From the NCBI GenBank assembly GCA_963920595.1, contig OY986947.1, positions 3,410,001 through 3,474,000 on the forward strand: a DNA stretch of 64,000 nt, in the 5' to 3' direction. Made by a program: the position numbers and the translations under genes. Positions 48,791 to 55,706 of the stretch are shown here, in pieces. The notes under the pieces are model-generated. The model worked only from the letters and a program-made list of their open reading frames with translations, ran no database searches and was not told the DNA's origin. Every line of letters starts with the position of its first letter. The stretch's first letter is position 1. Source of the stretch: Eimeria praecox. Its lineage: Eukaryota.

Positions 48791-51700
48791 TCAGCTGCGT
48801 CCTCTTCCTCTATCCATCCCGCCTCTACCTGCAGCACAGCACACCACAACAAACAGCAGCAGTTGCTGCTTCTGCTGCTGCTGCTTCTGTTATTGCTGCT
48901 GCTATTGCTGCTGCTGCTGCTATTGCTGCTGCTGCTGCCGCTGCTGCTGCTGCTGCTGCTGCTGTACCTCTAAGAGAAATTCCTCGTCCCCGTCCTCTCC
49001 CCCTCGCCGGTGCTTTGTCTCGTTCTAAGGAGACACATAGAAAGGAGACACATAGAAAGGAGACAGATTAATAATAATAATAATAATAATAGTAATAATA
49101 ATAATAATAATAAATAATAATAATAATAATAAGCAGTAATAATAATAATGATTTGTCTGTCTCCTTCTGTCTCCCCTGTCTCCTCCTGTCTCCTGCTGAG
49201 ACAGGAGGAGAGACAGAAGGAGACAGAGGAGACAGAGGGAGACAGAGGAGACAGGAGACAATAAGGTAATAATACGAGAGACAGAGAAGGAGACAGATTA
49301 ATAATACGAGACAGCAAGAGGCAGGAGACAGTTAATAATAATACAGAGAAGGGGACAGATAAATACGAGACAGGGGAGACAGGAGACAGAAAATAATACG
49401 AGAGACAGAGAGGGAGACAGATAATAATACGAGAGACAGAGAAGGAGACAGATAATAATACGAGAGACAGAGAAGGAGACAGATAATAATACGAAACAGG
49501 AGGAGACAGGGGACAGATAATAACAATACGAGAGACAGGGAGGGAGACAGACAGGAAGGAGACAGATAGAAAGGAGACAGATAGTAATACGAGACAGCAG
49601 GAGACAGGAGACAGAGGAGACAGGAGACAGATAATAATAGGAGACAGACGAGACAGGAGACAGAAGAGACAGAAGACAGAGGAGACAGAGGAGACAGGAG
49701 ACAGATAATAATAGGAGACAGACAAACAGAGACAGCCAGGAGGAGACAGACAGAAAGGGGGAAGAGGAGACAGGAGACAGATAGAAATGAGACAGATAGA
49801 AAGGAGACAGTAGAGAAGAAAGGGTTTACGTAGTTCTTTCTCCTCTCTCTACTTTATAATTAATAATTAGTAATTAATAAATAATAAATAATAATTAATA
49901 ATTAATAATTAATAATTAATAATTAATAATTAATAATTAATAATTAATAATTAATAATTAATAATTAATGATATTTAATAATACTTAATAATAAATAATT
50001 ATAAATAATAATAACTAGGGTTTAGGGTTTAGGGTTTATAGTTTACGAGATTGTTTTTCGTCTTTCACAATATTAATTAACTCTTCCTGTACTTAATAAT
50101 AAATAATTATAAATACTAATAACTAGGGTTTAGGGTTTAGGGTTTAGGGTTTAGGGTTTAGGGTTTACGAGATTGTTTTTCGTCTTTCACAATATTAATT
50201 AACTCTTCCTGTACTTAATAATAAATAATTATAAATACTAATAACTAGGGTTTAGGGTTTAGGGTTTAGGGTTTAGGGTTTAGGGTTTAGGGTTTACGAG
50301 ATTGTTTTTCGTCTTTCACAATATTAATTAACTCTTCCTGTACTTAATAATAAATAATTATAAATACTAATAACTAGGGTTTAGGGTTTAGGGTTTAGGG
50401 TTTAGGGTTTAGGGTTTAGGGTTTACGAGATTGTTTTTCGTCTTTCACAATATTAATTAACTCTTCCTGTACTTAATAATAAATAATTATAAATACTAAT
50501 AACTAGGGTTTAGGGTTTAGGGTTTAGGGTTTAGGGTTTAGGGTTTAGGGTTTACGAGATTGTTTTTCGTCTTTCACAATATTAATTAACTCTTCCTGTA
50601 CTTAATAATAAATAATTATAAATACTAATAACTAGGGTTTAGGGTTTAGGGTTTAGGGTTTAGGGTTTAGGGTTTAGGGTTTACGAGATTGTTTTTCGTC
50701 TTTCACAATATTAATTAACTCTTCCTGTACTTAATAATAAATAATTATAAATACTAATAACTAGGGTTTAGGGTTTAGGGTTTAGGGTTTAGGGTTTACG
50801 AGATTGTTTTTCGTCTTTCACAATATTAATTAACTCTTCCTGTACTTAATAATAAATAATTATAAATACTAATAACTAGGGTTTAGGGTTTAGGGTTTAG
50901 GGTTTAGGGTTTAGGGTTTACGAGATTGTTTTTCGTCTTTCACAATATTAATTAACTCTTCCTGTACTTAATAATAAATAATTATAAATACTAATAACTA
51001 GGGTTTAGGGTTTAGGGTTTAGGGTTTAGGGTTTAGGGTTTACGAGATTGTTTTTCGTCTTTCACAATATTAATTAACTCTTCCTGTACTTAATAATAAA
51101 TAATTATAAATACTAATAACTAGGGTTTAGGGTTTAGGGTTTAGGGTTTAGGGTTTAGGGTTTACGAGATTGTTTTTCGTCTTTCACAATATTAATTAAC
51201 TCTTCCTGTACTTAATAATAAATAATTATAAATACTAATAACTAGGGTTTAGGGTTTAGGGTTTAGGGTTTAGGGTTTAGGGTTTACGAGATTGTTTTTC
51301 GTCTTTCACAATATTAATTAACTCTTCCTGTACTTAATAATAAATAATTATAAATACTAATAACTAGGGTTTAGGGTTTAGGGTTTAGGGTTTAGGGTTT
51401 AGGGTTTACGAGATTGTTTTTCGTCTTTCACAATATTAATTAACTCTTCCTGTACTTAATAATAAATAATTATAAATACTAATAACTAGGGTTTAGGGTT
51501 TAGGGTTTAGGGTTTAGGGTTTAGGGTTTAGGGTTTACGAGATTGTTTTTCGTCTTTCACAATATTAATTAACTCTTCCTGTACTTAATAATAAATAATT
51601 ATAAATACTAATAACTAGGGTTTAGGGTTTAGGGTTTAGGGTTTAGGGTTTAGGGTTTACGAGATTGTTTTTCGTCTTTCACAATATTAATTAACTCTTC

Positions 51701-54700: not shown

Positions 54701-55706
54701 TAGGGTTTACGAGATTGTTTTTCGTCTTTCACAATATTAATTAACTCTTCCTGTACTTAATAATAAATAATTATAAATACTAATAACTAGGGTTTAGGGT
54801 TTAGGGTTTAGGGTTTAGGGTTTACGAGATTGCTTTTCGTCTTTCACAATATTAATTAACTCTTCCTGTACTTAATAATAAATAATTATAAATACTAATA
54901 ACTAGGGTTTAGGGTTTAGGGTTTAGGGTTTAGGGTTTAGGGTTTACGAGATTGTTTTTCGTCTTTCACAATATTAATTAACTCTTCCTGTACTTAATAA
55001 TAAATAATTATAAATACTAATAACTAGGGTTTAGGGTTTAGGGTTTAGGGTTTAGGGTTTACGAGATTGCTTTTCGTCTTTCACAATATTAATTAACTCT
55101 TCCTGTACTTAATAATAAATAATTATAAATACTAATAACTAGGGTTTAGGGTTTAGGGTTTAGGGTTTAGGGTTTACGAGATTGCTTTTCGTCTTTCACA
55201 ATATTAATTAACTCTTCCTGTACTTAATAATAAATAATTATAAATACTAATAACTAGGGTTTAGGGTTTAGGGTTTAGGGTTTAGGGTTTAGGGTTTACG
55301 AGATTGTTTTTCGTCTTTCACAATATTAATTAACTCTTCCTGTACTTAATAATAAATAATTATAAATACTAATAACTAGGGTTTAGGGTTTAGGGTTTAG
55401 GGTTTAGGGTTTACGAGATTGCTTTTCGTCTTTCACAATATTAATTAACTCTTCCTGTACTTAATAATAAATAATTATAAATACTAATAACTAGGGTTTA
55501 GGGTTTAGGGTTTAGGGTTTAGGGTTTACGAGATTGCTTTTCGTCTTTCACAATATTAATTAACTCTTCCTGTAGCCGCGCGTATTTTATATTATTTCCT
55601 CTCAAGAAACATTCCTCCACCCTCCAAAAACTCTGCCCGTCCTAAAAAACACACAACCACATACAGACAACACAAAGGAGACAGAGACAGAGAGAGATAC
55701 AGAGAC

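What the first reader, a model, noticed from the sequence alone, without database searches (positions are those of the whole stretch)
50015..55641. LSm4 carries ~45 tandem, frame-preserving 45-nt exon copies separated by telomere-repeat mini-introns
Seen: on the minus strand each unit reads ...ttattattaAG|TACAGGAAGAGTTAATTAATATTGTGAAAGACGAAAA[A/G]CAATCTC|GTaaaccct(aaaccct)n agttattagtattt... The 45 nt between AG and GT are the 3' end of genuine exon 4. That exon ends in phase 1 (TCT C|), confirmed by the downstream RG-tail exon at 49024, so C|TA CAG regenerates the native Leu-Gln. Each included copy would add an exact [15 protein letters not shown] with no stop. Spacers are 70/77/84 nt, begin GT and end AG. 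Inference: a core splicing/decay factor could be made with 0 to ~45 helical 15-mers (up to ~675 aa) between its Sm fold and RG tail. Alternatively, the array is a snapshot of mass intron/exon gain by tandem duplication that must be skipped past ~45 identical donors. Caveat: the in-frame acceptor is a weak AAG. A CAG 5 nt downstream would give a 40-nt frameshifting exon, and an upstream TAG acceptor would bring in a stop.
Basis: partly seen in the sequence, partly recalled or inferred. Interest (0 to 1): 0.93.

Follow-up and report, generated by a model that had tools for sequence, protein, structure and literature searches.

The report
Splice-junction minisatellite in coccidian LSm4 intron
In an Eimeria-type parasite, the last 45 bases of one exon of the RNA-processing gene LSm4, plus the start of the next intron, are copied 45 extra times in a row; the copies would read in frame if included, but they are likely unused decoys, as in similar repeats known from human and lancelet genes.

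Summary
The array is real and described correctly. There are 46 copies of the 3' 45 nt of LSm4 exon 4 (1 native, 45 extra), and 45 GT..AG spacers of 70/77/84 nt. Contig depth in one run fits about 30 or more copies, so it is not a one- or two-unit artefact. Relatives (Cyclospora, E. stiedai) join the two exons directly with one copy.

The unit is a tandem duplication across the exon/intron junction. The 'acceptor' AAG is ordinary intron sequence that also sits, unused, behind the last copy, next to a 2-base microhomology. This matches a known class: junction-reiterating minisatellites ('mirages'; human F7, CBS, LMNB2; amphioxus Adh3 and globins), where mainly the first donor is used. The same 64 kb holds three more splice-site duplications.

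The in-frame ladder is not excluded. The AAG is the best-scoring AG in the unit, and such frame-keeping arises at only 2.5-9% of simulated breakpoints. No RNA data for this organism were available. Most likely the copies are silent decoys, tolerated because the Sm fold ends before the array. New member of a known kind; modest interest.

The parts
56382..56423 (-). LSm4 exon 2 (42 nt), inferred
   Evidence: open join; its peptide resembles the N-terminal stretch of the Cyclospora and Toxoplasma rows (compared by eye); exon 1 not located (one weak candidate at 56974-56969)
55997..56095 (-). LSm4 exon 3 (99 nt), Sm1 half of the fold
   Evidence: Pfam LSM E 4.3e-10; human LSm4 16-48
55530..55641 (-). 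LSm4 exon 4 (112 nt, ends in phase 1); its last 45 nt (55574-55530) are the native copy of the repeated segment
   Evidence: human LSm4 49-82; the Pfam LSM match (weak, E 0.089) ends at residue 21 of 37, before the repeated residues 23-37
49982..55529 (-). Minisatellite: 45 spacers (first 70-84 nt of intron 4: GT donor, 5-7 AAACCCT heptamers, AT-rich tail) alternating with 45 extra exon-end copies, plus the terminal intron-start copy; 46 donors in all, 45 of them identical
   Evidence: array junction seen as a loose end in 9 contigs of run X1
50047..50091 (-). Terminal copy (unit 46); the intron start behind it has 3 private substitutions and 3 intact heptamers and runs on into unique intron
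49025..49981 (-). Unique remainder of intron 4 (direct intron 55529-49025 = 6505 nt, GT..TAG)
48968..49024 (-). LSm4 exon 5 (57 nt), RG-rich tail
   Evidence: colinear with Cyclospora P0154 and E. stiedai P0002
48790..48828 (-). LSm4 exon 6 to the stop codon, inferred
   Evidence: open join ending in an RG-rich peptide

Best explanation
This is a minisatellite made from the exon 4/intron 4 junction of LSm4, and its 45 extra donors and exon-end copies are likely skipped, so that the mRNA would join the first donor to exon 5 and encode a normal LSm4. Shown: the unit, its copy number in the assembly, and the host gene. Inferred origin: a duplication of about 120 nt between two TA dinucleotides (one in the exon, one about 65 nt into the intron), then amplified locally by slippage or unequal exchange. 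This explains the polarised variants and the diverged terminal copy. Inferred splicing: the first donor wins because it is paired across exon 4 with a good acceptor, or because it is met first (the F7 scanning result); the other donors have only a weak AAG upstream, behind two TAGs. Inferred tolerance: the array lies after the Sm fold, so retention or any mis-splice still leaves the fold whole and costs only the RG tail.
For: Breakpoint: the same tail ending AAG-TA stands behind the last copy, followed by plain intron. Relatives have one copy and a direct join; none of the 249 proteins held at that point (LSm4 homologues) showed an internal 10-mer repeat. Polarity: the 7 extra G copies all lie in copies 2-14 (P 3.8e-5), and G is linked to 5 heptamers in 8 of 8 (Fisher P 2e-7). 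There are only 1 synonymous exon change and 3 intron changes, so no sign of coding selection can be read. Spacers are shorter than 18 of 18 inferred introns; 20 of 21 inferred acceptors are CAG or TAG. Same window: two perfect decoy acceptors in a WD40 gene and one in a hydrolase gene lead to stops and must be skipped. An older in-frame exon-end+donor copy in the WD40 gene has 5 of 30 bases changed, 3 of them altering residues. Precedent: F7, LMNB2 and PDGF use only the first donor; IFI6 and CBS use the first plus two more (PMC1557585); amphioxus mirages do not disturb splicing even where units carry AG/GT (PMC3087553). Tail-less Lsm4 restores viability in yeast (PMC10530990).
Against: No RNA was seen. 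The in-frame AAG is the top-scoring of 7-8 AGs in the unit (3.6; 2.2 without the one AAG training site). That is level with the true exon 5 acceptor (3.0) and at or above 8 of 21 genuine sites in leave-one-out scoring, though only between the 75th and 90th percentile of 935 decoys. One genuine AAG acceptor is inferred at 44282. Best-AG-in-frame arises in only 4.2% of 26,622 simulated breakpoints (2.5% with this score; 9.1% for an in-frame AG at the junction). The direct intron (6505 nt) is three times the longest other intron measured (2097). Exon skipping is the rarest splicing event in Toxoplasma and Plasmodium (<3% of alternatively spliced genes) and intron retention the commonest (PMC8561664). 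The first-donor precedents are from mammals and amphioxus, not apicomplexans.
Confidence: 0.65

Rival explanations
1. The spacers are spliced as short introns (nearest-neighbour pairing), so a substantial share of mRNA carries one to 45 extra 15-residue helices between the Sm fold and the RG tail; the array survived because it keeps the frame.
For: All 45 spacers are GT..AG; inclusion is stop-free; the AAG is the best AG in the unit, with a U-rich tract and a TAAT branch-like motif at -18; frame-keeping chance is 2.5-9%; exon skipping is rare in apicomplexans.
Against: The AG predates the duplication; two TAGs upstream and a CAG 5 nt downstream give stops, and errors would compound over 45 units; spacers are shorter than 18 of 18 inferred introns; 95.7% of simulated duplications have some in-frame AG; no relative has a repeat; the finding was picked out because it is in frame.
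Confidence: 0.18
2. Splicing is largely disturbed: retention, or use of a later donor without removal of the earlier spacers, gives a tail-less LSm4 that stops three codons into the first spacer. It is tolerated because the fold is intact.
For: Read-through stops after Arg-Lys-Pro; intron retention dominates apicomplexan isoforms; NMD is inefficient in P. falciparum (PMC10449492 abstract); tail-less yeast Lsm4 is viable.
Against: Exons 5 and 6 are intact, in frame and conserved with Cyclospora; tail loss has fitness costs in yeast.
Confidence: 0.12
3. Assembly or amplification artefact: the genome has one or two units.
For: Near-identical units; my depth fit gives about 31, not 46; run X1 may be the source sample, so it is not independent.
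Against: Four unit types occur in non-periodic, polarised order with perfect G/5-heptamer linkage. The junction is present in 9 contigs of X1. Summed depth over the 45 nt fits 27,723 per 31-mer against 902 on the unique exon (r 0.996; hard floor about 15-fold). X2 has a 64-nt contig at depth 12,250.
Confidence: 0.04

Closest known systems
Human donor-reiterating minisatellites: F7 IVS7 (37 bp x 5-9), IFI6/6-16 intron 2 (25 pseudo-sites), CBS IVS13 (31 bp x 15-21), LMNB2 (100 bp x 10-15), PDGF intron 4 (81 bp x 16-18). PMC1557585: abstract, passages of Introduction and Results, and whole Discussion seen; PMC2630376: passages seen
   Same: The first unit spans the exon/intron boundary, so the exact donor is repeated down the intron; head-to-tail units of minisatellite size.
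   Different: Larger here (46 units, 5.5 kb); in an apicomplexan; the unit holds 45 exon bases behind an in-frame AG and a block of telomere-type heptamers. Donor choice was tested by RNA there and is untested here.
Amphioxus 'mirage' minisatellites (Adh3; globins BflGb6 and BflGb9). PMC3087553: passages seen, supplements not opened
   Same: Tandem copies of exon/intron boundaries, at both 5' and 3' boundaries in one genome; many units carry AG/GT; boundary units are excluded from homogenisation; proposed as raw material for intron gain.
   Different: Far fewer units in the globin cases (up to 6); RT-PCR there showed regular splicing; no telomere-type heptamers are mentioned in the passages seen.
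Intron gain by tandem duplication across an intron/exon boundary (potato RdRp). PMC4974935: abstract seen
   Same: A duplication crossing a splice boundary supplies the signals for a possible new intron.
   Different: There one new intron was detected; here none is shown, and the duplicated boundary is the donor side.
Eimeria AAACCCT and CAG simple repeats. PMC4287421 and PMC11912684: passages seen
   Same: The heptamer blocks in the spacers are the genus-wide non-coding repeat; 51 further arrays of 3 or more units lie in this window.
   Different: Here the heptamers are nested inside a higher-order 115-129 nt unit.

Membership tests
Exon/intron-junction minisatellites (F7-type, mirages) | First unit spans a genuine exon/intron boundary | tested here: met
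   exon 4 homology and phase-1 join to exon 5
Exon/intron-junction minisatellites (F7-type, mirages) | Head-to-tail units of 10-200 bp that repeat the splice site exactly | tested here: met
   45 identical donors plus one terminal donor that differs from +7
Exon/intron-junction minisatellites (F7-type, mirages) | Concerted evolution with a diverged boundary unit | tested here: met
   polarised variants; terminal unit has private changes
Exon/intron-junction minisatellites (F7-type, mirages) | Regular mRNA uses the first (or first few) donors | not testable with these tools
   no RNA run of organism A among the 24 runs listed
Exon/intron-junction minisatellites (F7-type, mirages) | Length polymorphism between alleles or strains | tested here: inconclusive
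   nothing laid from the second sample X3, which the tool says can be a filter effect
Tandem cassette/repeat-exon arrays that lengthen a protein | Each copy flanked by AG and GT, frame-preserving and stop-free | tested here: met
Tandem cassette/repeat-exon arrays that lengthen a protein | Acceptor and intron size typical of the organism | tested here: inconclusive
   AAG in 1 of 21 inferred acceptors; score 2.2-3.6 overlaps weak genuine sites and decoys; spacers shorter than 18 of 18 inferred introns
Tandem cassette/repeat-exon arrays that lengthen a protein | Copies present in mRNA or protein | not testable with these tools
   no RNA or proteome data
Tandem cassette/repeat-exon arrays that lengthen a protein | Conserved in relatives, or exons more constrained than introns | tested here: not met
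   Cyclospora, E. stiedai and Toxoplasma models have one copy; 1 exon versus 3 intron changes gives no signal; no close sister species could be examined
LSm4 (host gene) | Sm fold most similar to LSm4, followed by an RG-rich tail | tested here: met
   best PDB hits are LSm4 for both exons; alignment

The most novel reading that the evidence does not exclude
The parasite splices the 70-84 nt telomere-repeat spacers as introns and makes LSm4 with a variable run of up to 45 identical helices (up to 675 residues) between the Sm fold and the RG tail. That would be mass intron and exon gain caught in the act in a core splicing and decay factor, with a satellite acting as a tunable protein linker.
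Probability: 0.12. Interest if true: 0.8.

Novelty: new member of a known kind. Interest (0 to 1): 0.33.

Why it matters
If the copies are silent, this is a large protist example of a known oddity. It shows that an apicomplexan spliceosome can skip 45 near-identical donors across 6.5 kb, which suggests exon-paired or first-come donor choice in a group where exon skipping is rare. One RT-PCR or long-read run would test this. If the copies are included, it would be a striking case of repeat-driven exon and intron gain in an essential RNA factor. Practically, the array is a candidate length marker for strains, and it warns that gene predictors may break LSm4 here.

Tried and rejected
No whole genome is held, so LSm4 copy number and other places of the unit could not be checked. 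The run search listed 24 runs: three of organism A with shares 0.69, 0.49 and 0.47, and six on record as RNA with shares of 0.17 or less from unrelated metatranscriptomes, which I did not lay. In one search nothing was laid from X3 (second sample) and no unique-exon contig from X2; both can be filter effects, so I draw nothing from them.

Two homolog searches found nothing (40-aa exon, cullin exon), so the species was not identified. The third returned 99 LSm4-like proteins, none named as an Eimeria protein. An exact 32-base pattern had 0 matches in metagenome contigs. Rfam at gathering threshold: 0 matches in 48500-57500. Three units fold no better than shuffles (z 0.89), so structural masking of donors is not supported.

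Branch-point motifs are not recognisable in most inferred introns (1-5 of 21), so they cannot decide the acceptor. For the acceptor model I left out four candidate sites whose joins did not read open or were first exons (1708, 33720, 42499 and the 36.8 kb pair). The 29-nt repeat at 39968-40200, first noted as donor-like, looks purely intronic and was dropped.

Paper searches: 'Eimeria'+'LSm4' 0 papers; the minisatellite/pseudoexon search 0; nothing useful on coccidian minimal intron size or AAG use. Earlier scan notes near this place or like this exon: none. A centromere-like satellite and a mobile element were considered; the unit is wholly derived from the local junction and only one loose-end type was seen. 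No fold was run, since it could not tell whether copies are spliced.

Full report
Observation. On the minus strand, the 45 bases at 55574-55530 (the end of an exon) recur 45 more times down to 50047. Of the 46 copies, 38 have A and 8 have G at one synonymous site. The 45 spacers are 70, 77 or 84 nt (10, 26 and 9 of them). All start GT, end AAG and differ only in having 5, 6 or 7 AAACCCT heptamers. TRF gives period 122 and 45.6 copies.

Host gene and organism. The exon matches human LSm4 49-82 and the one before it matches 16-48 (Pfam LSM). Exons at 56423-56382, 56095-55997, 55641-55530, 49024-48968 and 48828-48790, joined by coordinates, read open to one stop; exon 1 was not located. The best of 303 hits among cluster representatives are models from Cyclospora cayetanensis and Eimeria stiedai at 71% identity. 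With the CAG and AAACCCT repeats typical of Eimeria (PMC4287421 passages), this points to an Eimeria-type coccidian; the species was not determined. The Cyclospora and E. stiedai proteins are colinear with the direct exon 4-exon 5 join, with one copy of the segment. The weak Pfam LSM match in this exon ends at residue 21, so the repeated residues 23-37 lie after the fold.

Is it real? Run X1 has a 153-nt contig at depth 902 running unbroken from intron 3 into exon 4, which I read as DNA. It also has 9 contigs whose loose end is the array junction, and summed depth up to 426,822 over the repeated 45 nt. The tool warns that summed depth is no copy number. My own model, with each internal 31-mer as its own contig, fits the eight bins (r 0.996) at 27,723 per 31-mer, about 31 times the unique depth; the hard floor is about 15. 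The gap to 46 may be AT bias (29% versus 43% GC), merged contigs, or a real difference. X2, the same sample, has one 64-nt contig at depth 12,250. X1 may be the source sample. Unit order is non-periodic and polarised (G copies only among the first 14, P 3.8e-5; G always with five heptamers, P 2e-7), as expected of local amplification.

Origin (inferred). The native exon reads GGC then TACAGG; behind the last copy the intron reads TTAAG then TATT. So the duplication joined a TA about 65 nt into the intron to a TA inside the exon, and the AAG before each copy is inherited intron sequence. The terminal intron start has three private substitutions. GT followed directly or closely by heptamers also opens other introns here, so the 'telomere-repeat mini-intron' is simply the start of an ordinary intron. 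The window is 56% simple repeat and holds three more splice-site duplications. The first is a diverged exon-end+donor copy at 30128-30163, also behind an AG and in frame (30 nt; 5 changes, 3 altering residues). The second is three identical acceptor+exon-start copies at 32752-33002, the first two reaching a stop. The third is an acceptor+exon-start copy at 45929-46010 that reaches a stop. The decoy acceptors must be skipped for those genes to work (inference).

Splicing outcomes. Of the 7-8 AGs in a unit, three AAGs keep the frame (45, 36 and 15 nt exons); the two TAGs, the CAG and the rest lead to stops. Read-through stops three codons into the first spacer. All copies included would add 675 codons. 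From my own gene models (21 acceptors; four doubtful candidates left out), 16 are CAG, 4 TAG and 1 AAG. A small weight matrix scores the 45-nt AAG at 3.6 (2.2 without the AAG example), the best in the unit. That is level with the real exon 5 acceptor (3.0) but also between the 75th and 90th percentile of 935 decoys, so the model does not decide. Spacers are shorter, and the direct intron (6505 nt) longer, than all 18 inferred introns measured (139-2097 nt). In 26,622 simulated breakpoint pairs, 95.7% had some in-frame AG, 9.1% one at the junction, 4.2% had the best AG in frame and 2.5% with this score. The frame-keeping is therefore a moderate coincidence. It may reflect a survival filter, but the finding was also chosen for it. 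No RNA run of this organism was listed.

Mechanism. Most likely (0.65) the first donor is used, the array leaves as one intron, and LSm4 is normal. Mis-splicing would cost only the RG tail, and tail-less Lsm4 supports growth in yeast though with defects (PMC10530990 passages). Rivals: substantial in-frame inclusion (0.18), helped by the rarity of exon skipping in Toxoplasma and Plasmodium (PMC8561664 passages); mostly tail-less product (0.12), helped by weak NMD in P. falciparum (PMC10449492 abstract); artefact (0.04).

Comparison. Minisatellites whose first unit spans an exon/intron boundary are known. F7, LMNB2 and PDGF use only the authentic donor, and IFI6 and CBS use it plus two more (PMC1557585; abstract, passages and Discussion seen; CBS repeat range also in PMC2630376 passages). 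Amphioxus 'mirages' copy 5' and 3' boundaries, often carry AG/GT, leave splicing regular, and were proposed as a route to intron gain (PMC3087553 passages; its supplementary alignments were not opened and might show in-frame units like these). A potato case of intron gain by a boundary-crossing duplication is in PMC4974935 (abstract). The array meets the sequence criteria of this class; the splicing criterion is untested. It differs in size, host group, nested heptamers and the in-frame AG. I found no paper on this locus. Earlier scan notes describe the same class in animal genomes; they are unchecked leads, and I had reached the F7 comparison before seeing them.

Verdict. Real, a new member of a known kind, interest 0.33. 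The exon-ladder reading stays open at about 0.12 as a major product and can be settled by one RNA experiment.

Noticed in passing
window 29975-30010 and 30128-30163 (+): WD40-like gene: older duplicate of an exon end plus GTAAGG donor; the 30-nt copy follows a TAG, is in frame and stop-free, and differs at 5 of 30 bases. Same class as the LSm4 array.
   Followed up: partly
window 32752-33002 (+): Same gene: three 100% identical copies of an acceptor plus the first ~24 exon bases; the first two reach a stop, so two perfect decoy acceptors must be skipped.
   Followed up: partly
window 45929-46010 and 46159-46240 (+): Alpha/beta-hydrolase gene (ABHD17-like by recalled motifs; weak Pfam hydrolase hits): acceptor plus exon start duplicated at 96% identity; the first copy ends in a stop.
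   Followed up: partly
window 44282 (+): Inferred genuine AAG acceptor paired with an unusual GTTTGT donor at 43380 in the hydrolase gene.
   Followed up: partly
window 2696-2850 (-): Cullin gene: 18-nt unit x 8.6 just upstream of an acceptor, resembling the GGTGTA.A motif seen before several acceptors in this window.
   Followed up: no
window 12813-16895 (+): 1361-codon stop-free stretch rich in poly-Q and poly-A with no Pfam match at E 0.05.
   Followed up: partly
window 57969-59183 (+): 405-codon stretch with an FHA-domain hit at the Pfam cutoff, on the opposite strand upstream of LSm4.
   Followed up: no
window 56424-58600 (-): LSm4 exon 1 is not obvious; relatives start Met-Val, but the only ATG-codon-GT candidate gives Met-Pro at 56974-56969.
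   Followed up: partly
window 39968-40200: 29-nt intronic minisatellite built around telomere-type heptamers.
   Followed up: partly
P0007, P0008, P0010: Three unrelated LSm4-like database proteins gave two matched stretches to exon 4; P0008 appears to hold an insertion in the same helix, probably a gene-model read-through.
   Followed up: no
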